Positions 4,413 to 27,924 are shown, counted from the first letter of the stretch. The stretch is DNA of 64,000 nucleotides from an uncultured Acidimicrobiia bacterium (GCA_963772815.1 CAVYYV010000005.1:318626-382625); one strand, 5' to 3'. A program made the numbers and translations. The notes: generated by a model not told the origin, from the letters alone.

Positions 4413-4546
4413 CCCTTCCCCCTCTCGCTTTGCTCGTGGGGGACAAAGGTCCCTGCCGGCGGAGCGTAAGCCGGACCGTGCACTCACCGCTGGAATTCGC
4501 CCCCTTCCCCCTCTCGCTTTGCTCGTGGGGGACAAAGGTCCCTGCG
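4413..4546. repeat. Two direct copies (~4413-4457 and ~4502-4546) of the element CCCTTCCCCCTCTCGCTTTGCTCGTGGGGGACAAAGGTCCCTGC in the convergent fadB / ABC-exporter intergenic region; third related copy at 27827-27916
   Basis: Exact 44-bp duplication read in sequence, with an internal GGGAC-AAAG-GTCCC hairpin. Copy 1 continues GTCCCTGCCGGCGGAGCGTAAGCCGGA, which is also conserved in the 27.8-kb copy. Confidence 0.7.
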
Positions 4547-4569
4547 GGAGGTCGGGGGGAGTGCCTGGA

Positions 4570-6558
4570 CTAACCGGCTGCCACGGCCGGGCCCGGCTCC
4601 GGTCCGCCGCTGAACTGAGACTGGTAGAGCTCGGCGTAGGCCCCACCGGCCGTGAGGAGCCCGTCGTGAGTGCCTTGCTCGACGATCTGGCCGTCATCCA
4701 TCACCAGGATCAGGTCGGCGTCGCGGATGGTGGAGAGTCGGTGGGCGATGACGAAACTGGTGCGCTCACTGCGCAGGGCGGTCATCGCATGCTGCAACAG
4801 TGCCTCGGTCCGCGTGTCCACCGAGCTGGTGGCCTCGTCCAGGATCAGCAAAGCAGGGTTGGCCAGGAAAGCCCGAGCGATGGTGATGAGCTGTTTCTCG
4901 CCCGTGCTGACGTTGTCACCCTCGTCGTCGATCACGGTGTCGTAACCCTCGGGAAGGCTGTGCACGAACCGATCGACGAACGTGGCTCGGGCGGCCTCCA
5001 GGATCTCCTCGTCGGTGGCGTCGGGCCGACCGTAGGCGATGTTGTCACGAATGGATCCCTTGAAGAGCCAGGTGTCTTGGAGAACCATCCCCACCCGGGA
5101 CCGAAGATCGCTTCGCTTCACCCGGGAGATGTCGACCCCATCCAGCGTGATCTGCCCCCCGTCGAGGTCGTAGAAGCGCATGATCAGGTTGACCAGGGTG
5201 GTCTTGCCTGCGCCGGTGTGGCCCACGATGGCCACCATCTGGCCCGGCTCCACCGTCAGCGACACATCCTCGATCAAGGATTGCTCCAGGTCGTAGCTGA
5301 ACGAGACGTCCTCGAACGCAACCCTCCCCGCGCCACCATCGACCAGCGACCCGGCTTCCTCGTCGGACGGCTCCTCCTCGGCATCGAGCAGCTCGAACAC
5401 ACGCTCAGCTGAAGCCACGCCCGACTGGAGCAGGTTGAGCATCGAGGCCACCTGCGTAACCGGCTGGGAGAACTGGCGCGAGTACTGGATAAATGCCTGG
5501 ACATCGCCCAGGCTCATGGTGCCACTCGCCACCCTCAACCCTCCGATCACTGCTATCAGGACGTAGTTGAGATTCCCAATGAACATCATGATGGGCATGA
5601 TCAGCCCGGACAGGAACTGGGCCTTGAAGCTGGCCTGGTACAACTCCTCGTTGTCGACCTCGAAGGACTCCTGAACCTCGCGGTGGCGGCCGAACACCCT
5701 GACCAGCGCGTGACCGGTATAGGTCTCCTCGATCTTCGAGTTGAGAGTCCCGGTGCGCCGCCACTGGGTAATGAACTCGCTCTGGGAGCGGCGCATCACG
5801 AGGCCCGCTACGAATATCGTCACCGGGATGGTGATGAGGGCGATCAGGGCCAGGGTGGGTGAGATCCAGAACATCATCGCCACCACGAACAGCACGGTCA
5901 GCACCGACGACAGCATCTGGCTCATCGTCTGCTGGAGGCTCTGTGAGACGTTGTCGATGTCGTTGGTGACCCGGCTCAGCAGCTCGCCCCGCGGCTGGCG
6001 GTCGAAATAGCGCAGCGGCAGGCGGTTGAGCTTGTCCTCCACCTGGGCCCGCATGTCCAGGATCGTGGCCTGGACGACGTCATTGAGCACGTAGCCCTGG
6101 AGGTATCGCAGCAGCGAGGAGCCCAGGTACAGGGCGAGCACGATCAGCAACACGCGGCCCACGGCCCCGAAGTCGATGCCCCGGCCGGGCACCAGGTCGA
6201 TGCCCCTCAGCAGGTCGGCGATCTGGCTCTGGCCCCGGGCGATGGCGGCCTGAATGACCTGGTCCTTGGTCATTCCGGCCGGGAGGTTCTTGCCGATTGC
6301 CCCGGCGAAGATCAGATCGGTCGCCCGCCCCAGCACCTTGGGGCCGATGGCGGTGAGGGCCACACCGACGACGCCGGCCACCAGCACCACCGTCACTCTG
6401 ATTCGCTGTGGGCGCAAGTATCCCAGCAGCCGCCGCCCAGAAGTTCGGAAGTCGAGCGCCTTCTGGCCCACCATGCCTCCGCCGAAGGGGCCGTGCCGGC
6501 CCGGGCCGCCCTGGCCCTGGATTCGCTCCGTGGTCTTCATGGTGCGGGGAGCGGTCAT
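4570..6558 (-). CDS. ABC transporter, fused permease/ATP-binding exporter half-transporter
   Basis: ORF 4570..7065 is a read-through. Real start is the internal ATG (M170, MTAPRTMKTTERIQ...) at ~6558, overlapping the upstream gene's stop as ATGA. Six-TM exporter domain followed by Walker A GHTGAGKTT, signature LSGGQRQR-type region and Walker B ILDEATS. Confidence 0.8.
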   Translation of the reverse strand: MTAPRTMKTTERIQGQGGPGRHGPFGGGMVGQKALDFRTSGRRLLGYLRPQRIRVTVVLVAGVVGVALTAIGPKVLGRATDLIFAGAIGKNLPAGMTKDQVIQAAIARGQSQIADLLRGIDLVPGRGIDFGAVGRVLLIVLALYLGSSLLRYLQGYVLNDVVQATILDMRAQVEDKLNRLPLRYFDRQPRGELLSRVTNDIDNVSQSLQQTMSQMLSSVLTVLFVVAMMFWISPTLALIALITIPVTIFVAGLVMRRSQSEFITQWRRTGTLNSKIEETYTGHALVRVFGRHREVQESFEVDNEELYQASFKAQFLSGLIMPIMMFIGNLNYVLIAVIGGLRVASGTMSLGDVQAFIQYSRQFSQPVTQVASMLNLLQSGVASAERVFELLDAEEEPSDEEAGSLVDGGAGRVAFEDVSFSYDLEQSLIEDVSLTVEPGQMVAIVGHTGAGKTTLVNLIMRFYDLDGGQITLDGVDISRVKRSDLRSRVGMVLQDTWLFKGSIRDNIAYGRPDATDEEILEAARATFVDRFVHSLPEGYDTVIDDEGDNVSTGEKQLITIARAFLANPALLILDEATSSVDTRTEALLQHAMTALRSERTSFVIAHRLSTIRDADLILVMDDGQIVEQGTHDGLLTAGGAYAELYQSQFSGGPEPGPAVAAG

Positions 6559-8286
6559 GACGCCGCCACCCTGAGCTGGGACTCGACGATCTCGACGTAG
6601 GTGGGGCAGGTATCGAGCAGCTCGTGGTGAGTGCCCATTCCCACCACCAACCCGTCCTCCAGAACCACGATCCGGTCGGCATCCATGATGGTGGATACCC
6701 GCTGGGCCACCACGACCACGGTCGACTGAGCCGTCACCGGACGCAGGGCCCGCCGCAGTCGGGCATCGGTGGCCACGTCCAGGGCGGAGAACGAGTCGTC
6801 GAACAGGTACAGCTCGGGCCGGCGGATCAGGGCCCGGGCTATCGCCACCCGCTGGCGCTGGCCACCCGACAGCGTGGTCCCTTCCTGGGACACGGGGGCG
6901 TTGAGGCCCTCGGGCATGGCCTCCACGAAGTAGCGGGCCTGAGCGATCTCCAGCGCCTCCCACATCTCTTCTTCGGTGGCGTCGGGCTTGCCGTACGCGA
7001 GGTTGGAGGCGATGGTGCCCGAGAAGAGGAATGCCTTTTGAGGAACCAGTCCGATCTTGGCCCACAGCGCCTCGGGGTCGTACTCCCTCACGTCCACCCC
7101 GTCGACCAGCACGGCTCCTCCGGTGACATCGAACAAGCGCGGGATCAGGCTGACCAGCGTGGTCTTTCCGGCCCCGGTCGAGCCGATGATGGCGGTGGTC
7201 TCACCCGGGTCGGCGACAAAGCTGATGTCGCGTAGCACCGGGTAGCTGGCCCCCGGATACTTGAACTCCACCTGGCGCAGCTCCAACTCGACCGCGGGCT
7301 GCAGTCGTGGTGATGCCGGCGGTGGGAGGGACTACCGAAGACTCCGTGTCGAGCACCTCCCCGATGCGGTCGGCCGAGACCGAAGCGCGGGGAACCAGCA
7401 TGAACATGAAGGTGGACATCATCACTGCCATCAGGATCTGGATCAGATAGGACAAGTAGGCAACGACGGATCCGATCTGCATGGCCCCGGCCTCCACCCT
7501 GATCCCGCCGAACCACAAAACGGCGACGCTGGACAGGTTGAGGACCAGGAACACCGTTGGAAAGATCGCCGCCATCCAGCGGCCCACGGTGATGGCGACA
7601 TCGGTCAGCTCGCGATTGGCCAGACCGAACCGATCGGTCTCGAATGGCTCTCGGACGAAGGCCCGGATCACCCTGATCCCGGCGATCTGCTCGCGCAACA
7701 CCTGGTTGACCCGGTCTATGCGCCCCTGCATGAGGCGGAAAGCCGGCACCATGCGCGAGACGATCAGCCCTATGGCTCCTGCCAGCAGCGGGACCGCCAC
7801 TGCCACCAACCACGACAGCCCCACGTCCTCGCGCAGCGCCATGATCACGCCCCCAACCATCATCACGGGTGCCGGGATCAGCATGGTGAAGGTCATCAGG
7901 ACCAGCATCTGGACCTGCTGGGGATCGTTGGTGTTGCGGGTGATGAGCGACGGGGTTCCGAAGTGAGCCACCTCCCGGCCGGAGAAGTCCCCCACCGTCC
8001 GGAAGACGTCGAGCCGCAGGTCACGACCGAATGCCATGGCCGTGCGGGCCCCGAAGTAGACGGCAGTGATGGTGCAGGCCACCTGTAGAAGCGAGAAGGC
8101 CAGCATCCAGGCACCCACCCGGATGATGTAGTGGGTGTCGCCTGTGACGACACCGTTGTCGATGATGTCGGCATTGAGAGTGGGGAGATACAGGGCGGCC
8201 AGGGTGCCAATCAGCTGCAGCCCCACGATCAGCGAGATGACTCTCCGATAGGGTCGGAGATAACGCTTGAGGATCCGGACCAGCAT
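6555..8286 (-). pseudogene. ABC transporter permease/ATP-binding exporter, disrupted by a frameshift between the TMD (7201..8379 frame) and NBD (6555..7286 frame)
   Basis: The TMD ORF ends ...RIGEVLDTESSVVPP and then goes out of frame. The NBD ORF (ELRQVEFKYPGASYPVLRDISF..GSTGAGKTT...LSGGQRQR...LFDDSFSALD) is in another frame and opens only after a stop at ~7332. A 1-bp change in the CCCTCCC run at ~7322-7331 would fuse them as ...SSVVPPPPASPRLQPAVELELRQVEFKYPG. Start ATG ~8286 overlaps the tetR stop as ATGA. Confidence 0.7.
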
Positions 8287-8915
8287 CAGGCCCCACCCAC
8301 CCGAGTGGATTCGGCCACGCCAAACAGGAATATGTCGACCATCTCGGCGATCCCGAGATGCTGTTTGAGATCCGTCCACGAGATGCCCCGGGCAGAGACC
8401 AATCCGGCGAACACGGCCGCCGCCGTGGCCGGGGGAAGCCGGAGCCGATCGCTGTGGAGCTCGAAGAGGGTGGTGAGGGCGGCAGTTATGGAGGTGTTGG
8501 CGGCAGCCATGCGCGCCTGACCTTCGGCCATGTGCTCGGAGGAGATTGGGAGGGAACGAATCAGCGGAGCCAGGGAAAAGAAGACCTCGAGCCTCTCCAG
8601 CAGGATGCGAGCGGCTTCTGCCAGCTGAACCTCGATTGAGGCTCCGTCATGGATTTCCGACAATGCCCTGACCACCACGCCCGGGTCCATGGCCGTGGCC
8701 AACGCCGCCCGAATCAGGGCCGTCTTGTCTTCGAACACGCTGAAGATGGTTCCCTCGGCCACACCCGCGGCCTCGGCCATCTCCCGTGTGGTGACGGCCG
8801 ACCCGCGTCCGGCGAGCAGCGGGATCACCGCTTCGACGATGGCGCGGCGGCGCTCCTCGGGAGGAAGTGGATCTGCTCGGCTCACGGCGTGCACTCTAAC
8901 TGAGTGAGTACTCAC
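8286..8915 (-). CDS. TetR/AcrR family transcriptional regulator
   Basis: 209 aa. N-terminal HTH region (RRRAIVEAVIPLLAGRGSAVTTREMAEAAGVAEGTIFSVFEDKTAL) typical of TetR; stop overlaps the downstream ABC gene start. Called GTG start lies inside a palindrome; alternative GTGs at ~8894 and ~8885. Confidence 0.8.
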   Translation of the reverse strand: MSTHSVRVHAVSRADPLPPEERRRAIVEAVIPLLAGRGSAVTTREMAEAAGVAEGTIFSVFEDKTALIRAALATAMDPGVVVRALSEIHDGASIEVQLAEAARILLERLEVFFSLAPLIRSLPISSEHMAEGQARMAAANTSITAALTTLFELHSDRLRLPPATAAAVFAGLVSARGISWTDLKQHLGIAEMVDIFLFGVAESTRVGGA

Positions 8916-8917
8916 TC
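8902..8917. promoter_or_regulatory. Perfect 16-bp palindrome GAGTGAGTACTCACTC at the tetR start; candidate TetR operator
   Basis: Read directly. It overlaps the annotated tetR start codon region and is upstream of the tetR-ABC-ABC operon. Confidence 0.4.
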
Positions 8918-9006
8918 ACAAGTCCATTGGTCGAACCGGGATTCGGTCCTCTACCAATTGAATCATCTTTCGAGTGTTACGAACCTGTCTGTGCCCCCGC
9001 AGGTCG

Positions 9007-10830
9007 TCAGGACATCGCCACGGTGCCCCGTCTCCACGACTCGTACAGATGCCCGTATACACCGCCCTCCGTCAGGAGCTCCTCATGGGTGCCGTCCTGG
9101 ACCAGTCGGCCGTGGTCGAAGACGAGGACCCGGTCCGCCTTCTCGGCGGTGGACATGCGATGGGCGATGGTGACCACGGTCCTCCCGCTGGCCAGCTCGT
9201 CCATGGCCCGGGCGATCCGGACCTCGGTGGCCGGGTCCACGGCCGAGGTCGCCTCATCCAGAACCAGCAGATCCGGGTCGGCAATGGCGGCCCGCACCAG
9301 AGTGACCAGTTGCCTCTCTCCCACCGAGAGGGCGCTGCCCCGCTCGCCGACGGGGGTTCCCAGCCCGGCAGCCAGCTCATCCAGCCAACCCTCCAGGGCC
9401 AGTGCCTCGAAGGCGCCTCGCACGTGCTCGTCAGAGGCGTCCGGACGGCCCATCCTCACGTTGTCAGCGATCGTGCCGGAGAACAGCATCCCTTCCTGGG
9501 GCACCATCACCACCCGGTCCCGCAAGGAGTCGAAACGAACCGTTGACACGTCGACGTCCCCCACTCTGACCACTCCTTCGGTCGGATCCATCAGCCGGGT
9601 GAGTAGCTTGGCGAAGGTGGTCTTTCCGGACCCGGTCTCACCCACCACAGCCACCTTCTGGCGGGGCTCGATGCGGACATCGAGCCCCGTGAGCGCAGCA
9701 GAGCCGGTGGCGGCCTCGGCCGACTCGCCCGGCTTGGGATAGCGAAACGTGACTCCGGCGAAGGTCACTCCGAGCGGCCAGTCGGGTAGGGCCACTCCTT
9801 TCGCTCCCGGATCGGCCACGTCGGGGGGAATTCCCAGGATGTCGAGAACCCGCCGCCATCCGGCCACCGCGGTCTGAGCCTCGTTCACCGCCTCGCCCAG
9901 GACCTGGACCGGCTGGATGAACAACTGGACCAGGAACAAGAAGGCCACCACCCGGCCCACCGTGGTCAGGCCGTGAACCGCCAGCAGAGTCCCCACCACC
10001 ACCACCCAGGCCAGGACAAAGCCAGACAGGATCTCACCGGCCCCGGAGAACGCAGCCGAGAGGCTCCCGGCCTCTACTCCGGCTCGGCGATGCTCCTCGA
10101 TCGCCAGCCCCAGCCGCCGCTGGATCCTGCCCTCGATTCCGTAAGCGCGAATCACCGGGGCCCCGACGACGACCTCGGCCAGCACTGCCAGCATCCGGCC
10201 CACCTTCTCACGCACGATCAGGTAAGCCCTGTCGAGCCTGCTCTGAAACCAGCGCATGGTCAGCACGATGATCGGTAGGGACGCCACCACCACCCCGGCC
10301 AGCGGAGGCGAGTAGAACACCATCACGACCAGCGCCAGGAGGGCCTGGCCTCCGTTGGTGATCAGCATCAACCCGGCCCACTGCATGAAGCGGCTGATCT
10401 CGTCGACATCGGAGGTGACCCGGGAAACGAGGGACCCCCTCTGCTCCGAGGCCTGATGGAGCATGGAGAGGTCGTGGATGTGCCGAAAAGCACGGATACG
10501 CAGGCCTGAGAGGGCCGTCTCCGACACCTTGGCCAAACGCACGTTCATCCACCCAGTCGCCCCGGCCGTCACGATCACCGCCCCCAGCGCCAGGAGGCAC
10601 ATCCTGATGACGAACTTCATGTCGACCTGTCCCGCACTCAGACCGCCGTCCAGTATCTGTTGGATGGCGATGGGGACCACGACCCGGCCCGCTGTCGCCA
10701 CCAGAGCCAGAAGCAACGTTCCCGGCAGCCCACGACGCAACTCCGGGGAGAGGCGGAGACCCCGCTTGATCGTCTTCCAGGCACCGGAACGGGCCCGGCC
10801 GGAGTTCCTCGGGGCCGCCACAGCCGTCAC
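9007..10830 (-). CDS. ABC transporter, fused permease/ATP-binding exporter
   Basis: 607 aa. TM domain followed by GETGSGKTT Walker A, LSVGERQL signature-like and LVLDEATSAVD Walker B. Start overlaps the upstream ABC gene by 4 bp. Confidence 0.82.
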   Translation of the reverse strand: MTAVAAPRNSGRARSGAWKTIKRGLRLSPELRRGLPGTLLLALVATAGRVVVPIAIQQILDGGLSAGQVDMKFVIRMCLLALGAVIVTAGATGWMNVRLAKVSETALSGLRIRAFRHIHDLSMLHQASEQRGSLVSRVTSDVDEISRFMQWAGLMLITNGGQALLALVVMVFYSPPLAGVVVASLPIIVLTMRWFQSRLDRAYLIVREKVGRMLAVLAEVVVGAPVIRAYGIEGRIQRRLGLAIEEHRRAGVEAGSLSAAFSGAGEILSGFVLAWVVVVGTLLAVHGLTTVGRVVAFLFLVQLFIQPVQVLGEAVNEAQTAVAGWRRVLDILGIPPDVADPGAKGVALPDWPLGVTFAGVTFRYPKPGESAEAATGSAALTGLDVRIEPRQKVAVVGETGSGKTTFAKLLTRLMDPTEGVVRVGDVDVSTVRFDSLRDRVVMVPQEGMLFSGTIADNVRMGRPDASDEHVRGAFEALALEGWLDELAAGLGTPVGERGSALSVGERQLVTLVRAAIADPDLLVLDEATSAVDPATEVRIARAMDELASGRTVVTIAHRMSTAEKADRVLVFDHGRLVQDGTHEELLTEGGVYGHLYESWRRGTVAMS

Positions 10831-12659
10831 GAGACCGCTTCCGACTCGTAGGCGTCGATGAGGTCGGCGTAGGCAGCGAGGCTGGCATAGAGCTCCTCGT
10901 GAGATCCGCGACCGGTCACTCGTCCGTCCTCGACGAAGATGACTTCGTCGGCCAGGACGATCGAGGATCGCCGATAGGCAACGATGACCACCGTGGTCTC
11001 CAGGCCGGCAAGGCCGGCCAGGATGTCAGTCTCCACGGCCGGATCGACTGCCGAGGTGGCATCGTCGAGAACCAGCAGCCGGGGACGGCGGATCAGGGCC
11101 CGGGCCAGGGCGATCCTCTGGCGCTGACCTCCCGACAGAGTGGCCCCCCGTTCCCCGACATGAGATTCATAACCGTCGGGCAAATCGGTGATGAACTGGT
11201 GCGCCCGGGCGATCCTGGCCGCCCCGACCACATCGGCGTCGTCGAATTCGCCACCGAGGGTGATGTTGGCCCGAATCGTGTCGTCGAAGAGGAAGGCCTC
11301 CTGAAACACCAGCGCGGTGGAGTCGGCCAGCGCATCACGGCCCAGGTCGACCAGACCCCGACCGTCGAGGTCGATGCGACCTCGATCGGGATCGAACAAG
11401 CGGACCAGTAGTTGGGCGATGGTCGACTTCCCCGAGCCGGTGGGACCCACGAGCGCCACCGTCTTTCCTGGTGCGACCTCGAGCGTTACCGACTCGATCC
11501 CCCGCCGGTCGGCCTCGGCCCCCCGGTCGATCACCTCCTCGGCATCGGCCAGATCGGCCACCGACGTCTCTGGATACAGGTATCCGACATCGTCGGTGGC
11601 GGCCGAGGCGCCCCCCTGGCCCAGCAGGCTGTCTGGTCCGTACCCCACTTCCTGTCGGGTGTTGAGGACTCCTTCGACCCGGTTCCAACCCACGACAGCC
11701 CTGGGCAACTCGCCCAGCAGCCAGCCGAAGACGCGCATGGGAATGGCCACCAATCGGAACAGGAATGCAAACGTCACCAGGTCGCCGGCGGACAGGAACC
11801 CTTGGTCTACCCGCCACGAGCCGACTGCGAGGATGGCGAGGATGGCGATGTTGGGCAACGCTTCCACCACCGGGTCGAAGGCCGCCCGCAGCCTGCCCAC
11901 GTCCACCATCCGATCGCGCAGCAGGTCCGAGCGGGCTCCGAATCTGCCCACCTCGGCATCCTCTCTCCCCAGGGTCTTGACCACCAAAGCGGCATCGAAA
12001 GACTCGTGTGCGATCTCTGCGACCTCGGCCCGGAGGCGCTGGGCGGTGGCGGCCGCCGCTCTCATGCGACGCTGATAGAGAAAATTCACGACGCCTATGG
12101 CCGGCCCCGCGGCGAAGCCCACCAAAGCCAGGTAGGGGTCTGTCAGGACGAGCAGGATCGCCGTAGTGATCAGCATCACCAGAACCCCGAAGGCCATCGG
12201 GAGGGGATTGGCGATGAAGGCAGCGGACTCCACATCGGCGTTCGTGTTGGATAGGAGCTGGCCGGTCGGATGGCGTCTGTGCCACTCGATGGGAAGCCTC
12301 AGATACCGATCCGTCACCTCGACCCGGTCACGGGCCTGCAGTCGATAGTTGGCGGCGTAGGCACCTAGGCGGCGGCCGGTGATACCGATGCCCCGGGCGA
12401 CGGAGATCCCGAACACGGCCATTCCTGCTCCAACCAGCGTGGAGACGGCAACCTCGCCCGACTTGACCGCAGGTAGGAGAACGGAATCGGTGATCCAGCC
12501 CAGGACGAACGAAGACGCCACCGTGGCGGCGGCGAACAGCAGCGTTCCGATGCCTCCCACCACGAACTGGCGAGGGGCGCGTCGCAGCTGGCGACGGATG
12601 AGGGCCCACCCCCGGCCACGCAGGCCACTGGCGGCGGGATCTTCGAGGACACGGCTCAC
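10827..12659 (-). CDS. ABC transporter, fused permease/ATP-binding exporter (partner of 9007..10830)
   Basis: 610 aa. TM domain followed by GPTGSGKST, LSGGQRQRIALARAL, LLVLDDATSAVD. Confidence 0.82.
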   Translation of the reverse strand: MSRVLEDPAASGLRGRGWALIRRQLRRAPRQFVVGGIGTLLFAAATVASSFVLGWITDSVLLPAVKSGEVAVSTLVGAGMAVFGISVARGIGITGRRLGAYAANYRLQARDRVEVTDRYLRLPIEWHRRHPTGQLLSNTNADVESAAFIANPLPMAFGVLVMLITTAILLVLTDPYLALVGFAAGPAIGVVNFLYQRRMRAAAATAQRLRAEVAEIAHESFDAALVVKTLGREDAEVGRFGARSDLLRDRMVDVGRLRAAFDPVVEALPNIAILAILAVGSWRVDQGFLSAGDLVTFAFLFRLVAIPMRVFGWLLGELPRAVVGWNRVEGVLNTRQEVGYGPDSLLGQGGASAATDDVGYLYPETSVADLADAEEVIDRGAEADRRGIESVTLEVAPGKTVALVGPTGSGKSTIAQLLVRLFDPDRGRIDLDGRGLVDLGRDALADSTALVFQEAFLFDDTIRANITLGGEFDDADVVGAARIARAHQFITDLPDGYESHVGERGATLSGGQRQRIALARALIRRPRLLVLDDATSAVDPAVETDILAGLAGLETTVVIVAYRRSSIVLADEVIFVEDGRVTGRGSHEELYASLAAYADLIDAYESEAVS

Positions 12660-12707
12660 GCCGGGTGAGGGTATCCGCCCTTCTCAGGGGGCGGTAGTCG
12701 AGCCTTC

Positions 12708-13616: not shown

Positions 13617-13826
13617 GCTCAGCCGCTGCAACCCCTCACCAAGCGGCTCGCCTGCACGCAGGAGGAATGCTTCTGAAGACACTGCGGGAAGGTAGCGGCC
13701 CCGGTCGGGGTCGAGGTGGCGCTGCACCCCCCAGATGGTAATGAGGGCGGTTCGGCCCGCGCTTGACAACCCCTGGTCCCGTCCACATGATCGGCCTGAA
13801 GATCGGGGAGATCGCATGGGACGCGC

Positions 13827-18756: not shown

Positions 18757-18887
18757 CCTCTCGTTCAGCATGGCCCGCATTTCCACATCGACTCGAGCCT
18801 TCGGCTCGGGGAGGACGCGAGAATCACGACGCCTCCGGGTTCTACGGGCGATTCGCCCCTCCTCGCATCTCCGACGACGCCGAGGTG

Positions 18888-20908: not shown

Positions 20909-20914
20909 GTCTGC

Positions 20915-21334: not shown

Positions 21335-21406
21335 TCCAGTGGCACCGGTGACGGTCAGCCAGATGCGTCTCCTCGCCGATTTGCTGGCAGGTCCAGCCAG
21401 GGGCGA

Positions 21407-22354
21407 TCAGCCCTTGACGGCGCCGGCCGTCAGACCACGGACGAAGAACCGCTGCAAGGAGAAGAAGACCACCATTGGCAGGATCATCGTGATGAAAGCG
21501 CCGGCCGTGAGCAGATACCAGGACTGACCGCGCGAACCGTTCAGGGCGTTGAGGAACACCGTCAGCACCTCGACCTGCGGTGCTCCCCCCAGGAACACGT
21601 ACGCCACCAGAAAGTCGTTGAACACCCAGAGGAACTGGAAAATGGCGAAGGCGGCCAGGGCCGGCACCGAGAGAGGAACGATGAGACGGGTGAAGATCGT
21701 GAAGTGATCCGCCCCGTCTATCTCCGCAGACTCGATGATCGACGACGGCAGCGATCCGATGTAGTTGCGTAACAGGTAGATCGCCAGCGGTAACCCGAAT
21801 CCGGTGTGGGCCAGCCACACCCCCAGGAACGTGTGGTTCAATCCCAGAGCCGGGAAGATCGGTACGCCGCCGATGTTCGCTCCCAGGTTGTAGAGACGCA
21901 GGATGGGAATCAGGGCCATCTGCAGGGGCACGACCAGCAGGGCCACGACCACCACGAACAGCCATTGCCGCCCCGGGAACTCCATCCAGGAGAAGGCGTA
22001 GGAAGCGAAGGCGGCGATGGTGATGGGGATCACCGTGGCCGGGACCGCTACCACCAGGGTGTTGACGAAGGCGTTGCCGGCTCCCTCGTCGATGACGGTT
22101 CGGTAGTTTTGCAGGGTCCATTGGGTCCTGTCACCCAGGCTGCCGAACACGGTCCACCAACCCGACGTGTTGATGGCATCGGGGGTGCGGAACGAGCTGA
22201 TCAGGAGGCCGACGGTGGGAACCAGCCACAGCAGCACGACCACCAGGATGATGAAGCGGACCACCCATACACCGGCGCCCTCGCCGACGTTTCCTCCCTT
22301 GACGTCCTTGGGCGCCTGCACCTCTTTGGTGACGGGAACATCGCGGGTGGTCAT
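21407..22354 (-). CDS. carbohydrate ABC transporter permease (MalG-type)
   Basis: 315 aa, six TM segments, EAA-loop region (IESAEIDGADHFTIFTRLIVPLSVPALA). Confidence 0.85.
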   Translation of the reverse strand: MTTRDVPVTKEVQAPKDVKGGNVGEGAGVWVVRFIILVVVLLWLVPTVGLLISSFRTPDAINTSGWWTVFGSLGDRTQWTLQNYRTVIDEGAGNAFVNTLVVAVPATVIPITIAAFASYAFSWMEFPGRQWLFVVVVALLVVPLQMALIPILRLYNLGANIGGVPIFPALGLNHTFLGVWLAHTGFGLPLAIYLLRNYIGSLPSSIIESAEIDGADHFTIFTRLIVPLSVPALAAFAIFQFLWVFNDFLVAYVFLGGAPQVEVLTVFLNALNGSRGQSWYLLTAGAFITMILPMVVFFSLQRFFVRGLTAGAVKG

Positions 22355-23496
22355 CGGACGGCCTCCTCTTCACGAAACCGTCGGACGTTGAGGATCATCA
22401 CCGGTATCACCGCTATGAACATGAATACGGCGATGGCGGCGCCGTGCCCCCATTGTCGAGAGGTGAAGAACTGTTTGATCATCTCCTGGGCGACGATCTC
22501 GGTCCCGAACTGGCCCCCGGTCATCACGAACACGATGTCGAAGATCTTGAGGACGTTGATCACCATCGTGGTCAAGACCACGACGATGGTCGACATGATG
22601 TTGGGGACGACAACCCTCCAGAACACCTGGACCTCGCCCGCTCCGTCGATCCTGGCCGCCTCGATGATGTCTGTGGGCACACCCTTGATGGCGGACGACA
22701 GGATGACCATGGCGAACCCGGTCTGCATCCAGATCATGATCACCATCAGCAGCAGGTTGTTCCACGGCTCCTGTTGCAACCAGGGAACCGGATTGGCACC
22801 GACGCTGACCATGAAGCCGTTCAGCAAGCCGATCTGCTTGCCGAAGCCCTCGGGCCGGAAGTTGTACATGAACCGCCACACGATGGCGGCTCCCACGAAG
22901 GAGACTGCCATGGGAAGGAAGATCATCGACTTGGAGAACGCCTCGGTCCGCTTGAGCTTGTCGGCCAGGACTGCGAATCCCAAGCCGATCGCCGTGGCCA
23001 CGACCGGCACCACGATCACCCATCCCAGCGTGTTGCGGATCGCCCGCAACATCTCCGCGCTGCTAAACACGAAGGCGTAGTTGTCCATCCCGACGAAGGT
23101 GTCGCCGTGCGGCCCCTGGAAGCTCAACCAGATGGTGTTGATGGCCGGATAGACCAGGAAAATGATCAGGATCACCAGGGCGGGTCCCACGAATGCAAAC
23201 GGCCTGATACGGGCACCGACGTGCTCGGGGAGCAGCTTGATCAGCAGATCCATGCCCCAGTAGAGAGCGAACACACCGAATACCCCCACCACCAGGGCCA
23301 CGACGACCACCAGCAGCTTGCTGGCGTTCTGGTCTCTGAGGAAGTTGAACGACCAGGCCAGTAGGGCGAACGCAACGATAGGCACCGCCAAGGAGACGAC
23401 GATCCGTAGCAGCCCTACTCCGACGCCCTTGCCGGCGCCTCCTCCTGGAGGTGGCTTCGGCGGGGCCGGTTCCACCTCGACCGCTGGTTCAGTCAT
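22351..23496 (-). CDS. carbohydrate ABC transporter permease (MalF-type)
   Basis: ORF 22351..23541. EAA loop IEAARIDGAGEVQVFWRVVVPNIMSTIV. Start probably M16 (MTEPAV...) at ~23496. Confidence 0.82.
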   Translation of the reverse strand: MTEPAVEVEPAPPKPPPGGGAGKGVGVGLLRIVVSLAVPIVAFALLAWSFNFLRDQNASKLLVVVVALVVGVFGVFALYWGMDLLIKLLPEHVGARIRPFAFVGPALVILIIFLVYPAINTIWLSFQGPHGDTFVGMDNYAFVFSSAEMLRAIRNTLGWVIVVPVVATAIGLGFAVLADKLKRTEAFSKSMIFLPMAVSFVGAAIVWRFMYNFRPEGFGKQIGLLNGFMVSVGANPVPWLQQEPWNNLLLMVIMIWMQTGFAMVILSSAIKGVPTDIIEAARIDGAGEVQVFWRVVVPNIMSTIVVVLTTMVINVLKIFDIVFVMTGGQFGTEIVAQEMIKQFFTSRQWGHGAAIAVFMFIAVIPVMILNVRRFREEEAVR

Positions 23497-23600
23497 GTTT
23501 GCGCTCGCTCCTTCCGCCTGGTCTGCGATCCTAACCAACACGGGGCGGCCGTGACGGCCGCCCCGTGTCAGTTCTCATCGGCTCATCGACTGAGTGGCAC

Positions 23601-24941
23601 TCAGCCTGAGAAGCCGGACTGTGCCTTTTCCATCGCCGCCTGCAGGCTGTCGGGTCCGCCGGTGGCGTAATCGATCATGGCCTGCCAGAAGGTTCCCTGC
23701 CCCACGGCGGGATCCATCAGGTCGGAAGCGTCAAAGCGAGCAACCCCCTCTGCCAACGCCTGGGTGATCGTGTCGGCCGCCTGGCCGATCAACTGATCCC
23801 TGTAGCAGTCGGAACCCACCTCGATGTTGGGCGAGATGCGGGCGATGCCCTCGATCGAGCCCTGGGCGCACTGGACGTCCTTGGAGACGAATCTCTGGAC
23901 GAAGTCCAGCACCTCGGGCCGGTTGTTGAGCACCCCGGCCAGCTCGCCACCGATCAACGCTCCACCATTCCCATCGATAGTCGGGAACGGGAAGAAGTTG
24001 TAGTCCTGCAACGCCGTCACGCCTTCGGGGAAGAAGTTGGTGATGAACGTCCACAGGCCGGTCATGTAGCACGAGGGTGGATCATTGAACATCGGATCCG
24101 GCGCGTCACGGAAGTCGATCGACGGCACCTGGGCGGCGCCACCGAGGACGAATTGGTCGTTGTCGCCGAACAGAAGGTCGCCGAACGTCTTGCCGGCATC
24201 CATGATCGGCTGATCCGTGAACTTGACGTCGTTAGTGACCCACTGGTCATAGACGTCGGGACCGGCCTGACGAAGAACGATGTTCTCCATCCAGTCGGTT
24301 CCCGGCCAGCCGGTGGCAGCATCAGAGCCGAAGCCGATGCACCACGGCGTATTGCCATCCTGGACCATCTGGTCACTCAGGGCGACCATGTCGGCCCAGG
24401 TCTCAGGCGGCGTGTAACCGGCTGACTCCCAGGCTGGAACGTTGTACCAGATGGCGCTCTTGAAGTTGACATTGGTCGGGATCCCGTAGTGCTTCCCGTT
24501 GTACTCGCCGAGTGAGACGAGGTAGTCACCAAAGATCGACGTCAGGTCGTCGATGTTGTACCCGAGATCTTCCAGGGCCACCAGATTGCCGTTCTTGGCC
24601 TGCTCCACGACGGCGCCGGGCTGTGGCCAGATGGCGATGTCGGGCGGCGAACCACCCTCGATCTGGATCTGGATCTGGGACTCGAACGAGTCCGAGCCCT
24701 CGTAGGTCGCCGTGTAGTCGACCTGGTTGTTGATCTGCTCCTCGATCACCTGCTGGATGGCATCACCCTCGGCACCGGTAGGAGCACCGAAGACCGAGAC
24801 TTCGCCGGTGTTGGCACCGCCGCCACCGGTAGTCGCAGAGCCACCACTTCCGGTGGTCGTATCTGTGGTGGTGCCACCACAAGCGGCGATGACCATGGCG
24901 AGAACCACGGCCACGGCCCATAATCTGGACCTCTTCCGCAT
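23601..24941 (-). CDS. sugar ABC transporter substrate-binding lipoprotein
   Basis: 446 aa. Lipoprotein signal MRKRSRLWAVAVVLAMVIAACGG followed by a Gly/Thr linker. Family 1 extracellular solute-binding protein-like composition. Confidence 0.8.
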   Translation of the reverse strand: MRKRSRLWAVAVVLAMVIAACGGTTTDTTTGSGGSATTGGGGANTGEVSVFGAPTGAEGDAIQQVIEEQINNQVDYTATYEGSDSFESQIQIQIEGGSPPDIAIWPQPGAVVEQAKNGNLVALEDLGYNIDDLTSIFGDYLVSLGEYNGKHYGIPTNVNFKSAIWYNVPAWESAGYTPPETWADMVALSDQMVQDGNTPWCIGFGSDAATGWPGTDWMENIVLRQAGPDVYDQWVTNDVKFTDQPIMDAGKTFGDLLFGDNDQFVLGGAAQVPSIDFRDAPDPMFNDPPSCYMTGLWTFITNFFPEGVTALQDYNFFPFPTIDGNGGALIGGELAGVLNNRPEVLDFVQRFVSKDVQCAQGSIEGIARISPNIEVGSDCYRDQLIGQAADTITQALAEGVARFDASDLMDPAVGQGTFWQAMIDYATGGPDSLQAAMEKAQSGFSG

Positions 24942-25024
24942 TCTTCCTCCTCGTTGTGTCTAGTTTCTCGGCTCGAAGAGCCGCGCTCAGAGATCGTAGA
25001 TCTCCCGCCCGTCGCGAAGACGCG

Positions 25025-25040
25025 CTGTAAGCGTTTTCGG
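25025..25040. promoter_or_regulatory. Candidate LacI-family operator half-palindrome CTGTAAGCGTTTTCGG upstream of the solute-binding protein gene
   Basis: TGTAAGCG resembles the left half of TGTAAGCGCTTACA-type LacI/CcpA operators. A second TGTAAGCC lies in the lacI-glucosidase divergent region (~26160). Confidence 0.25.
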
Positions 25041-25125
25041 ACACTATGTGGACCACCGCCCCGACGTCAAGTGGGACCGGACCCCCGGCGGCCTGGCGAT
25101 GCCCCACGAGAGGCCGGACTCCTGA

Positions 25126-26142
25126 TCAGCGACGAACGCGAGCCGGCCCGGTCGATCCCCGCACGGTCAACTCCGTCGCCAGCACTGCTCGGCGAGGGAT
25201 ATCTGACTGCTCTGCCACCCTTGCCAACACCATGTCGGCCGCCCGAGCCGCCATCCCCGAAACCGGCTGGTGGACCGTGGTCAGATCGACCGCTCCCGCC
25301 ACCGAATGATCATCGAAGCCGACCACCGAGATATCGTTGGGAACCTCTAACCCCGCCCGGCGAATCGCCATCAGCGCCCCGATGGCCATCTCGTCCGAGG
25401 CGCAGAACACGGCGGTGGGAAGGTCGGGACGGCTGAGAAGCTCGGCCATCGCTTCACATCCTCCCTCGACGCTGAAACCGCCGGCCAGTTCGGTCAATTC
25501 CCCACCTCCCACCGCCTCCAGGGCTTCCATGAGCCCCTGGCGGCGGAGGGCGGCCGACTCGAACTCGAGGGACTCGTCCACACCGCCGCCGATGAAGGCC
25601 AGGCGCCGATGCCCCAAGTCCAGGAGATGCTCGGCCGCCATTCGGGCCGAGGCGACATTATCGATCAGCACCGCGTCGAACAGCCCGGTGTCGACGCCAA
25701 CCGTGGCCACGGCCATCCCGCTGTCGGCCAGGGCCTCCCACATGTCGTCGTAGAGGAAGAGGTCTATCACGACCAGGCCGTCCACCTTCTTGGAGAGAGC
25801 GGGCAAATCGGACACGAACCGCCTCATCGCCTCGGGGCCGTCGACCGTGAGCAGATGCATGTCGAGCTGGTCTCCGGACACCGCCGCCTCGATGCCCGCC
25901 AGGATGTTGCCGTAGAACCACGAGTTGACGATCGGGAGCGCCACACCGATCGTCCCGCTGCGACGGGCGGCGAGCCGGGCGGCGTGCGGATTGGCCCGGT
26001 AGTCGAGCTGATCGGCAATCTGCTGCACCCGAGCCCTGGTGCTGGGGGAGACATGAGGTAGGCCACGCAAGGCCCGGCTGACCGTCGCAACCGAGACCCC
26101 AGCCTTCTTGGCTACATCCTCGATGGTGGCGACGTCGGTCAC
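25126..26142 (-). CDS. LacI family transcriptional regulator
   Basis: ORF 25126..26259. HTH VTDVATIEDVAKKAGVSVATVSRALRG, then a periplasmic-binding-fold effector domain. Start probably the GTG at V40 (~26142). Confidence 0.85.
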   Translation of the reverse strand: MTDVATIEDVAKKAGVSVATVSRALRGLPHVSPSTRARVQQIADQLDYRANPHAARLAARRSGTIGVALPIVNSWFYGNILAGIEAAVSGDQLDMHLLTVDGPEAMRRFVSDLPALSKKVDGLVVIDLFLYDDMWEALADSGMAVATVGVDTGLFDAVLIDNVASARMAAEHLLDLGHRRLAFIGGGVDESLEFESAALRRQGLMEALEAVGGGELTELAGGFSVEGGCEAMAELLSRPDLPTAVFCASDEMAIGALMAIRRAGLEVPNDISVVGFDDHSVAGAVDLTTVHQPVSGMAARAADMVLARVAEQSDIPRRAVLATELTVRGSTGPARVRR

Positions 26143-26242
26143 CGTTGAGCGCTCATTCAGGAGTCGGAATGTAAGCCCGGACCCAAAGGGGGTCAAGAGA
26201 ACAATCCAGGACGACAAGGCCCGACCGGTACTCTCACGGACC

Positions 26243-27800
26243 ATGAACTGGTGGGCCAACGCCGTCGGCTACGAGGTGTACATCCGGTCCTTCGCCGACG
26301 GAAACGGTGACGGAATCGGCGATTTCGCCGGCATGACCGAGCGGTTGGGCCATCTCGCCTGGCTGGGTGTGGACGTGATCTGGGTCACACCCTTCTACCC
26401 GTCCCCGCAAGCCGACTTCGGCTACGACGTGATGGACTACACCGACGTCGACCCCCAATTCGGCGACCTGGAGACGTTCGACCAGGTGGTGGGGCACGCC
26501 AAGGAGCTCGGCTTGCGAGTAATGGTCGACATCGTTCCCAACCACACCTCGGATCGACACCCCTGGTTCATCCAGGCCCTGGCCGATCCCAACAGCCCAT
26601 ACCGCGACTACTACATCTTCCGCCCCCCGGGTCCCGATCGGGGGGCCTCCCAATAACTGGATCTCCAACTTCGGCGGCCCCGCCTGGACCCTCGATCCGG
26701 CCAGTGGGGAGTACTACTGCCATCTGTTCTTGCCCCAACAGCCCGACCTCAACTGGGCCAGCGAGGCGGTGCGGGCCGAGTTCGACAGCATCCTCACCTT
26801 CTGGATGGACAGGGGCGTCGACGGCTTCCGGATCGACGTGGCGCATGCCCTGATGAAACATCCCAGCTTCGCCGACAACCCTCAGATCGAGCCGTTGTCC
26901 CCGAACCCCACTCCCCGGCAGGCCTACAAGGCGTTCGACCATCTCTATGACCAGGACCAGCCCACCAATCTCGACATCTATCGCCGCTGGAAGAACCTCC
27001 CCGGCGGTTCGGAGATCTGCCTGGTGGGTGAGGTCTACCTGACCAATGCCGAGCGCAGCGCGGCATACATGAACGTGGGAGGGCTCGATTGGGCCCTGTT
27101 CTTCGCGCTCAACCGCCGGCCCTGGGATCCCGCCGCCTTCGCCGACGAGATCCGCCACTGGGTCGAAGCTGCCCCAACCGGATTCGCCTGGTCGATCGCC
27201 AGCCACGACGAGCACCGGCCCGCCACGCGCTTCGGCGGAGGCGAGGAGGGCCGTGCCCGCGCCCTGGCCCTGTGGTCCGCGTTGTCCATGCTGCCCGGCA
27301 TGCCCTTCCTGTATCAGGGGGAGGAGCTCGGCCTGGAGAACGGCCAAGTAGATCCGGCCGATGTCCAGGATCCGGTCGGCATGGAGGCGTACCAGGAGGG
27401 ACGCGATCCGTGCCGGACCCCGATGCCGTGGGAGTCGGGTCCCGGTCAGGGCTTCACGACAGCCGAGCAGGCATGGTTGCGTTGTGCTGACCGACCACCT
27501 CAGGAGACAGTGGTCGCGCAGCGCCATGATCCCGGCTCCACGCTGCACCGCTACCGGGAGCTACTGGAGGTGCGCCGAAATCTCCGGGTGGGCAGTCGGG
27601 GCACCCCAACCTGGCTCGAGGCCGGCCCCGGGGTGATCGCGTTCGAACGCCAGGACCTGGCGGCCGTGGCCAACCTGACCGACTCTCCGGTCGAATCCAA
27701 CCTCGACCCGACCTACACGCTCATCTTCGACACCGGCGTCCAAGAAGCCGCCGACGAGACGGCGGTCCCTCCACGCACTACGCGGATCTACACCCGTTGA
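26243..27800 (+). pseudogene. GH13 alpha-glucosidase / oligo-1,6-glucosidase-like, disrupted by a frameshift (ORFs 26108..26656 and 26730..27800)
   Basis: N-terminal ORF has MNWWANAVGYEVYIRSFADGNGDGIGDF...GVDVIWVTPFYPSPQADFGYDV...DIVPNHTSDRHPWF...YRDYYIFRPPGPDRGASQ-stop. The next frame reads PPNNWISNFGGPAWTLDPASGEYYCHLFLPQQPDLNW...GVDGFRIDVAHAL.... A 1-bp change in the G6 run at ~26636-26645 joins them. Start moved to ATG at 26243 (MNWW...). Confidence 0.75.
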
Positions 27801-27826
27801 GGGTGAAACACCCCCCTACCTCCCGC

Positions 27827-27916
27827 CTCCGCTTCGCTCCGGCGGCAGGGACTTTCCCCCTGCAAGCAGGGGGGCAAAGCTTTGTCCCTCACGAGCGGAG
27901 CGAGAGGGGCAAGGGG
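27827..27916. repeat. Third, inverted and extended copy of the 4413/4502 repeat element, between the convergent glucosidase and lon genes
   Basis: Reverse complement reads CCCCTTGCCCCTCTCGCTCCGCTCGTGAGGGACAAAGCTTTGCCCCCCTGCTTGCAGGGGGAAAGTCCCTGCCGCCGGAGCGAAGCGGAGG. Compare CCCTTCCCCCTCTCGCTTTGCTCGTGGGGGACAAAGGTCCCTGCCGGCGGAGCGTAAGCCGGA at 4413. Extra hairpin CCCCCTGC-TTGCA-GGGGG inserted. Confidence 0.65.
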
Positions 27917-27924
27917 ACGTCAGC

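What the first reader, a model, noticed from the sequence alone, without database searches (positions are those of the whole stretch)
4413..27916. Second intergenic repeat family at convergent gene ends (fadB/ABC gap x2, glucosidase/lon gap x1)
CCCTTCCCCCTCTCGCTTTGCTCGTGGGGGACAAAGGTCCCTGC occurs twice in direct orientation 88 bp apart at 4413-4546. A third copy, inverted and ~80% identical, lies at 27827-27916.

The third copy shares the downstream extension GTCCCTGCCG-CGGAGCG-AAGC-GGA but has an extra CCCCCTGC/GCAGGGGG hairpin inserted. Every copy sits where a plus-strand gene and a minus-strand gene converge. The module contains small hairpins (GGGAC-AAAG-GTCCC; CAAAGCTTTG).

This looks like a ~90-bp structured repeat or small RNA module with insertion/deletion variants. 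I do not recognise it as a named element.
Basis: seen in the sequence. Interest (0 to 1): 0.5.

Follow-up and report, generated by a model that had tools for sequence, protein, structure and literature searches.

The report
REP/BIME-like palindromic repeats in Acidimicrobiia
The repeated 44-base sequence is one hairpin of a larger, modular, hairpin-forming intergenic repeat that is scattered through the genomes of a few related uncultured Acidimicrobiia, much like the REP/BIME elements of E. coli, so it is a new lineage-specific example of a familiar kind of bacterial "junk-or-terminator" repeat.

Summary
An exact 44-nt direct repeat lies at 4413-4456 and 4502-4545, and an inverted copy at 27880-27919 is 88-89% identical.

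The 44-mer is the conserved second hairpin of a unit of about 65-75 nt. Its parts, in order, are a head (CCCCCCTACC), hairpin 1, a link (CCTTCCCC), hairpin 2 and a tail (GGGGACAAAG). There are two unit types. Type 1 has a variable hairpin 1 and a conserved hairpin 2. Type 2 has the reverse.

The two types pair in inverted orientation, tail-to-tail or head-to-head, and form tandem arrays. Both window gaps are filled by such mosaics.

The family recurs in at least five other Acidimicrobiia genomes or metagenome contigs. All copies are intergenic, and most lie 0-56 nt after a stop codon. Of 19 clusters, about 8 are convergent, 7 unidirectional and 2 divergent.

Hairpin stems covary, and hairpin-1 stems form genome-specific subfamilies. 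Orthologous gaps differ in unit content.

There is no match in Rfam, plasmids, phages or viral contigs. No target-site duplications or canonical terminators were seen.

Best reading: a lineage-specific REP/BIME-like palindromic repeat family. How it spreads is untested, because no RAYT-like transposase could be looked for genome-wide. This is a new member of a known kind, of modest interest.

The parts
4334..4381 (+). Pre-head module: two GC hairpins (GGCCGAAGCC..GCCTCGGCTTC and GACCCCTGCGGGGTC) that precede the head. It is itself repeated at other loci.
   Evidence: Folds with z=-4.4 together with hairpin 1. Near-identical CCTCGGCTTCRCCCGACCCCTNNGGGGTC precedes heads in L018 12171-12209 and L011 4652-4684.
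4382..4448 (+). Complete Type 1 unit. Head CCCCCTACC 4382-4390; hairpin 1 CCCCGCAGCC-TCC-GGCTGCGGGG 4389-4411; link CCCTTCCCCC 4413-4422; hairpin 2 CCCCC-TCTCGCTTTGCTCGT-GGGGG 4418-4442; tail ACAAAG 4443-4448.
   Evidence: Covariance model R1 87.7 bits, E=7e-25. nhmmer E=9e-19. Sequence.
4449..4501 (-). Degenerate Type 2 unit in reverse orientation. It begins GTCCCTGCCGGCGGAGCGTAAGCCGGA, and similarity is lost after about 25 nt.
   Evidence: Weak nhmmer Type 2 hit 4468-4437 on the minus strand, E=0.009. Alignment to the 27827-27852 extension.
4502..4538 (+). Headless Type 1 unit (link + hairpin 2 + tail only). It is identical to 4413-4449 and shares the TT loop variant seen in no other copy, which suggests local duplication or gene conversion.
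   Evidence: Exact match. R1 44.8 bits, E=1e-11. Loop variants listed.
4539..4559 (-). Remnant of a reversed Type 2 unit with its conserved hairpin deleted (TCCCTGC-GGGAGG) and a mutated reversed head GGTCGGGGGG (A>C).
   Evidence: Compare GTCCCTGCCGCCGGAGCGAAGCGGAGGCGGGAGGTAGGGGGG in the copy at 27811-27852. Weak R1 hit 4504-4557 on the minus strand, E=0.019.
27811..27879 (+). Complete Type 2 unit. Head CCCCCCTACC 27811-27820; conserved hairpin 1 TCCCGCCTCCGCTTCGCTCCGGCGGCAGGGAC; link TTTCCCCC; variable hairpin 2 CCCCCTGC-AAGC-AGGGGGG; tail CAAAG.
   Evidence: nhmmer Type 2 E=1.7e-16. R1 31.1 bits, E=2e-7. Sequence.
27880..27918 (-). Headless Type 1 unit in reverse orientation, joined tail-to-tail to the Type 2 unit.
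   Evidence: Inverted repeats I5/I7 at 88-89%. nhmmer E=5e-9. R1 E=3e-7. The whole dimer folds at -65 kcal/mol on either strand, z=-3.4 and -2.5.

Best explanation
The three copies belong to a lineage-specific family of repetitive extragenic palindromic elements in Acidimicrobiia. The family is organised like the REP/BIME (REPIN-like) elements of Proteobacteria.

Anatomy. The basic unit is a double hairpin of about 65-75 nt. It is bounded by a head (CCCCCCTACC, which reads GGTAGGGGGG on the other strand) and a tail (GGGGACAAAG). There are two unit types. One has a variable hairpin followed by a conserved hairpin that carries the CTCGCT-NN-GCTCG apical motif. The other has the same two hairpins in the opposite order. 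The two types combine in inverted orientation, tail-to-tail or head-to-head, sometimes as tandem arrays.

What is shown:
- modular anatomy;
- dispersal at unrelated intergenic sites in several genomes;
- base-pair covariation in the stems;
- genome-specific subfamilies of hairpin 1;
- turnover of unit content at orthologous gaps;
- position immediately after stop codons.

What is inferred:
- The units multiply within genomes as non-autonomous elements, probably as single-stranded hairpins handled by an enzyme supplied in trans, such as a RAYT-like HUH tyrosine transposase.
- They then expand or contract locally by duplication, deletion and gene conversion.
- Because they lie in 3' untranslated regions, their very stable GC hairpins probably act incidentally as U-tract-less terminators, as barriers to 3'-exonucleases, or as insulators between converging genes.
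For: - Extra copies: 14 exact matches of the conserved hairpin lie in 12 loci of two Acidimicrobiia MAGs. Three loci from a JGI metagenome were found with the Type 2 pattern. A diverged unit lies in a genome whose FadB is about 71% identical (L019 6013-6068).
- Shared architecture: the same parts and HH/TT heterodimers appear in all of these loci. Tandem arrays occur in L006 (about 175 nt x4) and L008 (56 nt x5). A covariance model built from Type 1 units also finds Type 2 units at E=1e-7 to 1e-12, with 46 hits in 165 kb.
- Covariation: 94.5% of cells are paired, against 44-60% when the partners are slid. Six pairs show changes on both sides, in 19 cells, and 0 of 500 shuffles reach this. Type 2 hairpin 1 shows the compensatory change G-C to A-T between genomes (alignment).
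- Genome-specific subfamilies: hairpin-1 identity is 0.75 within genomes and 0.56 between them, permutation p=0.001.
- Location: none of the 19 clusters lies inside a gene. About 8 are convergent, about 7 unidirectional, and most are 0-56 nt from a stop codon. This matches the REP distribution described in PMC3733652.
- Turnover at the fadB/ABC gap: it is 236 nt here, 56 nt (pre-head + head only) in the closest relative, 110 nt with an unrelated palindrome in a more distant one, and 0 nt in another.
- Turnover at the lon/amylase gap: it holds 2 units here but 3 units plus a partial reversed unit in the orthologue L011, while the flanking genes are 83-87% identical.
- Folding: the gaps fold at -124 and -128 kcal/mol (z=-2.0 and -2.5) and at -65 kcal/mol (z=-3.4 and -2.5).
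- Fit to the literature: HH/TT heterodimers, conserved HH spacers, tandemly reiterated dimers and stop codons supplied by the tag are all described for tagged REPs (PMC3733652). In L018 the ABC gene stops on the CTA of the head.
Against: - No transposase has been linked to the family. A tblastn search with E. coli RayT found nothing in the 196 kb held. That amount of sequence is far too little to decide.
- The GTAG-containing tag lies 3' of the palindrome (5'-CTAC on the other strand). This is the opposite polarity to canonical 5'-GTAG REPs (PMC2817692).
- Units are double hairpins of 65-75 nt, longer than typical REPs of 20-40 nt.
- Copy number per genome is unknown. There are only 2 loci in this 64-kb window, and 9 and 5 exact matches in the two MAGs.
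- No clean filled-versus-empty site pair was found, so transposition, as opposed to recombination or slippage, is not demonstrated.
- Conservation of hairpin 2 among L001-L012 is partly forced by the search pattern. Independently retrieved copies (L014-L016, L019) have more diverged hairpin 2.
- The excess folding stability of the individual units in gap 1 is weak (z=-1.4 and -0.2).
- No expression data are available.
Confidence: 0.7

Rival explanations
1. A conventional MITE family: deletion derivatives of a DDE-transposase insertion sequence. The inverted heads or tails would be the terminal inverted repeats, and the parent element's transposase would mobilise the copies by cut-and-paste or copy-and-paste.
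For: Tail-to-tail dimers are bounded by inverted heads CCCCCCTACC...GGTAGGGGGG. Head-to-head dimers are bounded by inverted tails CTTTGTCCCC...GGGGACAAAG. Sizes are 110-250 nt. Copies are dispersed and intergenic.
Against: No direct target-site duplications flank either dimer type (flanks read). Either the heads or the tails can be the outer ends. Single units, headless units and tandem arrays of alternating units are common, which is BIME-like rather than MITE-like. No transposase gene was seen next to any copy in about 200 kb.
Confidence: 0.1
2. Not mobile. On this view these are U-tract-less transcription terminators or 3'-UTR stabiliser hairpins of a high-GC lineage. They look alike because selection, possibly by a common binding protein, maintains a shared motif at many gene ends.
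For: Most clusters lie 0-56 nt after stop codons. Structures are strong and the stems covary. These gaps contain no canonical hairpin + U-tract terminator. The apical motif CTCGCT-NN-GCTCG, with its 2x2 mismatch, is conserved in sequence, which would fit a protein-binding site.
Against: Identical 44-50-nt sequences occur at unrelated loci. Hairpin-1 stems form genome-specific subfamilies. Tandem arrays and alternating-orientation mosaics occur. Two clusters lie in divergent promoter regions (L001, L008). Orthologous gaps lack the element or carry a different palindrome. Together these point to amplification and turnover rather than site-by-site selection. The two views are not exclusive, because a mobile repeat can also terminate transcription.
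Confidence: 0.12
3. A family of small-RNA genes: each copy would be an independently transcribed structured sRNA.
For: The structure is conserved with covariation, and the copies are intergenic.
Against: No sigma-70-like promoters were found. Units occur in both orientations and as inverted pairs, so there is no consistent transcribed strand. They abut stop codons on one or both sides, leaving no room for a promoter. There is no Rfam match. Unit content at orthologous sites is not conserved.
Confidence: 0.04

Closest known systems
GTAG-tagged REP sequences and BIMEs (E. coli, Pseudomonas, Stenotrophomonas; Nunvar 2010 PMC2817692; Di Nocera 2013 PMC3733652)
   Same: - Extragenic GC-rich palindromic units with a short unpaired tag containing GTAG/CTAC at one end.
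- Stems that vary by compensatory changes.
- An apical mini-hairpin set off from the main stem by non-complementary bases.
- Heterodimers of two unit types in head-head or tail-tail orientation, with conserved head-head spacers.
- Tandem reiteration of dimers in alternating orientation.
- Location between convergent and unidirectional genes, close to stop codons.
- The tag sometimes supplies the stop codon.
   Different: - The host is Actinomycetota (Acidimicrobiia). The 2013 survey lists no actinobacterial tagged REPs.
- Each unit has two hairpins and is 65-75 nt long, not 20-40 nt.
- The tag has the opposite polarity: CTAC is 5' of the palindrome, so GTAG is 3'.
- No RAYT association has been shown.
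- Copy number is unknown and possibly lower.
REPINs (REP doublets forming hairpins; Bertels & Rainey 2011, PMC3116915)
   Same: Two inverted units with a short spacer can fold as one long hairpin. For the window dimer at 27811-27918 this fold is -65 kcal/mol. Sequence subfamilies are genome-specific, which suggests within-genome replication.
   Different: The partners are two different unit types, so these are heterodimers. Both head-head and tail-tail arrangements occur, as do long tandem arrays. The defining single-copy RAYT flanked by the repeat has not been found or excluded.
BOX elements of Streptococcus pneumoniae, and other modular intergenic repeats such as ERIC and Correia/MITEs (named from general knowledge, not tested here)
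   Same: A modular build from a few box types with variable number and order, stable stem-loops, intergenic location and unknown mobilising enzyme.
   Different: There is no sequence relationship. These elements are AT-richer, come from Firmicutes and Proteobacteria, and Correia and ERIC elements have defined terminal inverted repeats and target duplications.
U-tract-less ('I-shaped') hairpin terminators proposed for high-GC Actinobacteria (named from general knowledge)
   Same: GC-rich hairpins without a U-tract lying immediately downstream of stop codons, including between convergent genes.
   Different: Those terminators are not a repeated sequence family. Here the same sequence recurs at many loci and also in divergent promoter regions.

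Membership tests
REP (GTAG-tagged repetitive extragenic palindromes) | Short palindromic unit that forms a stem-loop, with compensatory variation in the stem | tested here: met
   Folds. Covariation: 94.5% of cells paired against 44-60% when slid, and 6 pairs with two-sided changes.
REP (GTAG-tagged repetitive extragenic palindromes) | Unpaired GTAG tetranucleotide at the 5' end, immediately before the stem | tested here: not met
   A conserved tag containing GTAG exists (GGTAGGGGGG), but on that strand it lies 3' of the palindrome. The 5' tag reads CCCCCCTACC. Canonical REPs read 5'-GTAG-stem (PMC2817692).
REP (GTAG-tagged repetitive extragenic palindromes) | Many dispersed copies per genome (usually >100), confined to extragenic space | tested here: inconclusive
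   All 19 clusters are extragenic. Copy number was not measurable: 9 and 5 exact matches in two MAGs, 2 loci per 64 kb here, and 46 model hits in 165 kb of loci chosen for having a hit.
REP (GTAG-tagged repetitive extragenic palindromes) | Preferential location between convergent and unidirectional genes, close to 3' ends | tested here: met
   About 8 clusters are convergent, about 7 unidirectional, 2 divergent and 2-3 ambiguous. The nearest stop codon is 0-56 nt away in most.
BIME (bacterial interspersed mosaic element) | Clusters of two REP types in alternating orientation with characteristic linkers, variably reiterated | tested here: met
   Type 1/Type 2 heterodimers occur tail-to-tail (window, L005, L006) and head-to-head with a conserved 40-65-nt spacer (L001, L010, L012, L014-L016). 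L006 has 4 tandem dimers.
REPIN/RAYT system | A single-copy RAYT (HUH Y1 transposase) gene flanked by the repeat in inverted orientation | not testable with these tools
   tblastn with E. coli RayT against the 196 kb held found nothing below E=0.8.
MITE | Terminal inverted repeats plus flanking target-site duplication | tested here: not met
   Inverted ends exist, but no direct duplications flank the dimers (flanks). The outer ends can be either heads or tails.
Any Rfam RNA family | Match at or above the family's gathering score | tested here: not met
   There were 0 matches in the whole window at gathering thresholds. Sensitive mode gave only sub-threshold generic hairpin (miRNA-like) hits.
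Canonical intrinsic terminator | GC hairpin followed by a U-tract | tested here: not met
   There were 0 terminator-like sites in 4200-4700 and 27650-28050.

The most novel reading that the evidence does not exclude
This may be the first REP/BIME-type system in Actinomycetota, with an unusual build. Its units are double hairpins in which the conserved and the variable hairpin swap places between two partner types, and its end-tag has the opposite polarity to GTAG REPs. That would imply a dedicated mobilising or binding enzyme, a divergent RAYT or a different HUH or other protein, with a recognition geometry not yet described. The strictly conserved apical motif (CTCGCT-NN-GCTCG, with a 2x2 C/U mismatch) would be its recognition site. 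The elements would also serve as the main bidirectional terminators at convergent genes in these genomes.
Probability: 0.25. Interest if true: 0.55.

Novelty: new member of a known kind. Interest (0 to 1): 0.3.

Why it matters
Repeats of the REP/BIME and REPIN kind are well studied in Proteobacteria, but the literature searched here describes essentially none in Actinomycetota. A defined family in uncultured soil Acidimicrobiia would have three uses.

- It extends the known range of such elements.
- It provides a covariance model that annotators can use to mask or label these intergenic mosaics. They can otherwise distort gene ends, and in one relative the head supplies a stop codon.
- It provides a handle for finding the enzyme that maintains them.

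If the hairpins terminate transcription, they would also help explain how convergent genes are insulated in a high-GC lineage that has few canonical terminators. None of this overturns current understanding.

Tried and rejected
- Rfam: the whole window at gathering thresholds and both gaps in sensitive mode gave nothing meaningful.
- Promoter and terminator consensus scans of both gaps found none.
- The metagenome scan with the Type 2 pattern returned only 3 contigs from one JGI sample. The family is therefore rare in that collection, and the scan was too small to find a transposase.
- tblastn with E. coli RayT (fetched from NC_000913) against all held DNA gave no hit. This is uninformative because only 196 kb was searched.
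- Plasmid, phage and IMG/VR searches gave no matches, so the family is not a known mobile-replicon sequence.
- Target-site duplications were looked for at dimer flanks and none was seen.
- The idea that the head is an insertion target left at an empty site was considered for L018, where the fadB/ABC gap holds only pre-head + head. I rejected it as unproven, because the pre-head + head is itself repeated at other loci (L011, window) and so may be a partial element.
- Simple tandem duplication of an 89-nt unit in gap 1 was considered. The two copies are identical for only about 50 nt and their flanks do not align, so gene conversion or duplication followed by decay is more likely. The shared, unique TT loop still points to a local origin.
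- A further protein-database search for RAYTs was not run. Results cannot be filtered by taxon, and the top hits to an E. coli query would be enterobacterial.


Full report
**1. Checking the observation**

The 44-mer CCCTTCCCCCTCTCGCTTTGCTCGTGGGGGACAAAGGTCCCTGC occurs exactly twice, at 4413-4456 and 4502-4545. None is expected in shuffled sequence. The similarity extends to 50 nt at 96% (D15).

The inverted copy is real. Arms 4413-4448 and 27880-27915 are 89% complementary, and 4498-4537 and 27880-27919 are 88%. It contains an extra CCCCCTGC-AAGC-AGGGGGG hairpin and the shared GTCCCTGCCGCCGGAGCGAAGCGGA stretch.

Both sites are gaps between converging genes:
- a FadB-like gene (ECH + 3HCDH domains, stop at 4333) against an ABC transporter (stop at 4570);
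- an alpha-amylase-family gene (stop at 27800) against Lon (stop at 27925).

The window corresponds to ENA metagenome contig ERZ25039549:contig_24653, which is 468 kb long. It differs from that record at 12 positions in 22.3 kb, none of them inside the repeats.

**2. What the element really is**

A scan of one genome per species with the core pattern found 14 exact matches in 12 loci. All came from two uncultured Acidimicrobiia MAGs, CAVUUV01 (MFD05684.bin.1.262) and DATFFO01.

The general design, in order, is:
- a head, CCCCCCTACC;
- hairpin 1;
- a link, CCTTCCCC;
- hairpin 2;
- a tail, GGGGACAAAG.

There are two unit types:
- **Type 1.** Hairpin 1 is short and variable. Examples are CCCCGCAGCC-TCC-GGCTGCGGGG, GCTGC-TCC-GCAGC and CAC-TTC-GTG. 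Hairpin 2 is conserved: CCCC-CTCTCGCT-NN-GCTCGTG-GGGG.
- **Type 2.** The order is reversed. Hairpin 1 is conserved (TCCCRCC-TCCGCTNCGCTCCGG-YGGCAGGGA) and hairpin 2 is short and variable.

A few units carry the conserved motif in both positions (L004, L012) or in neither (L002 1249).

The two types pair in inverted orientation:
- tail-to-tail in the window (27811-27918) and in CAVUUV01 (L005, L006);
- head-to-head with a 40-65-nt spacer in DATFFO01 (L001, L007, L010, L012). Its ends are partly conserved: a GTTCCCA(A/C)C-like motif (absent from L007) and GGGTTCG(G/C)C.

Tandem arrays occur. L006 has four dimers of about 175 nt, and L008 has five 56-nt units.

A second, independent scan of JGI metagenomes used the Type 2 pattern. 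It returned three contigs from one sample with the same architecture. A diverged single unit lies in a MAG whose FadB is only about 71% identical (L019 6013-6068).

**3. Parsing the two window gaps**

In this framework, gap 1 (4334-4559) reads as follows:
- a pre-head module that is itself repeated at other loci;
- a complete Type 1 unit, 4382-4448;
- a decayed reversed Type 2 fragment;
- a headless Type 1 unit, 4502-4538;
- a reversed Type 2 remnant ending in a mutated head, GGTCGGGGGG, 4550-4559.

Gap 2 is a Type 2 unit (27811-27879) joined tail-to-tail to a headless reversed Type 1 unit (27880-27918).

HMM and covariance-model searches of the whole window, the latter with filters off, find only these units. 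Nothing else reaches E<0.1 apart from overlapping minus-strand hits inside the same gap-1 cluster.

The two gap-1 copies share a TT loop variant seen in no other copy. This points to a local duplication or gene-conversion event. It was not a clean 89-nt tandem duplication, because the flanks do not align.

**4. Structure**

On an alignment of 17 Type 1-like units, the two proposed helices are 94.5% paired. When the partners are slid by 1-3 columns the figure is 44-60%. Six pairs show changes on both sides, in 19 cells, and 0 of 500 shuffles reach the observed covariation.

Type 2 hairpin 1 shows the compensatory switch G-C to A-T between genomes.

The conserved apical motif forms a 2-bp tip with a triloop whose last two bases vary. 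It is separated from the outer stem by a conserved 2x2 C/U mismatch.

Folding energies are large. Gap 1 folds at -124 and -128 kcal/mol on the two strands, and the gap-2 dimer at -65 kcal/mol. The excess over composition-matched shuffles is only moderate: z is about -2 to -3.4 overall, and -0.2 to -1.4 for the single units in gap 1.

**5. Distribution and dynamics**

None of the 19 clusters examined lies inside a gene. About 8 are between convergent genes and about 7 between unidirectional genes, next to the upstream stop. Two are between divergent genes (L001, L008), and the rest are ambiguous. The nearest stop codon is usually 0-56 nt away.

Hairpin-1 stems cluster by genome. Identity is 0.75 within genomes and 0.56 between them, p=0.001. 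Hairpin 2 does not cluster (0.84 against 0.80), but its conservation among L001-L012 is partly imposed by the search pattern.

Orthologous gaps turn over.
- The lon/amylase gap has 2 units here. The orthologue L011 has 3 units plus a partial reversed unit, although the flanking genes are 83-87% identical.
- The fadB/ABC gap is 236 nt here.
- In the closest relative that gap is 56 nt. It holds only the pre-head and head, and the CTA of the head serves as the ABC stop codon.
- In L019 it is 110 nt and is occupied by an unrelated perfect palindrome.
- In L021 it is 0 nt.

No target-site duplications flank the dimers.

**6. Comparison with what is known**

Rfam has no matching family. Plasmid, phage and viral-contig collections have no match.

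The anatomy and distribution match published descriptions of tagged REPs and BIMEs on these points:
- a tag at one end;
- compensatory stem variants;
- an apical mini-hairpin set off by unpaired bases;
- HH and TT heterodimers, with conserved HH spacers;
- tandemly reiterated dimers;
- a preference for convergent and unidirectional gaps close to 3' ends;
- tags that supply stop codons (PMC3733652; PMC2817692).

The differences are these:
- Actinomycetota are not among the phyla reported to have tagged REPs, and no paper linking them was found.
- Units are double hairpins of 65-75 nt.
- The GTAG-containing tag is on the 3' side of the palindrome rather than the 5' side.

The defining REP-RAYT association could not be tested.

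**7. Verdict**

The finding is real, but it is best explained as a lineage-specific REP/BIME-like palindromic repeat family (confidence about 0.7).

The mobilising mechanism is inferred, not shown. The likely cellular effect, hairpins in 3' UTRs acting as U-tract-less terminators or exonuclease blocks, is also inferred.

The rivals are less well supported. They are a conventional MITE, a non-mobile terminator motif, and an sRNA gene family.

It is a new member of a known kind, useful for annotation and as a lead to an actinobacterial REP system, but not surprising in principle.

Noticed in passing
window 48074-48124, 53966-54043, 59710-59789, 60261-60319: A different palindromic intergenic repeat family: GTTTTTATCAGCAAAACGG-loop-CCGTTTTGCAGGGGAGAA. 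It is present in both orientations at 83-98% complementarity. It has an A-tract, a GC stem and a T-tract, so it looks like a repeated bidirectional intrinsic terminator (D5/D7/I1-I4).
   Followed up: no
window 1998-2039 and 2070-2111; L018 9797-9910: A 42-nt direct repeat with a 72-nt period (CAACCCAGGGTTCCAGGCGTCGCCCAGCGACGCTCAGGGCCC) lies in the thiolase-fadB spacer. It is conserved at the orthologous site of the closest relative. The spacer is 61 nt in L019 and only 1 nt in L021, the two more distant relatives.
   Followed up: partly
window 62284-62454 (also 63569-63640): Repeats with an 18-21-nt period, CCACCACCGCGACATCCCCCA. They probably encode a short peptide repeat inside an ORF (D1/D2).
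   Followed up: no
L019 12198-12250: In a relative whose FadB is about 71% identical, the orthologous fadB/ABC gap holds an unrelated, AT-richer perfect palindrome, GATTTTCGCGACAGAATTGCGCGC / GCGCGCAATTCTGTCGCGAAAAC. The same convergent gap has therefore been occupied by different hairpin elements in different lineages.
   Followed up: partly
L018 12210-12220: In the closest relative, the called ABC-transporter gene ends on the CTA (TAG on its own strand) inside the repeat head CCCCCTACCCC. The C-terminal tails of the ABC protein differ between the two genomes, so the repeat reshapes a gene end.
   Followed up: partly
L008 3730-3960: Five tandem copies of a 56-nt unit (hairpin 2 plus a reversed head) lie in a divergent promoter region. 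This is a VNTR-like array of the same family in an atypical context.
   Followed up: partly
window 17923-40222 vs L013: The window differs from the ENA contig record at 12 positions (10 substitutions and 2 single-base indels) in 22.3 kb. None is in the repeats. This is probably a different polishing or version of the same assembly.
   Followed up: yes
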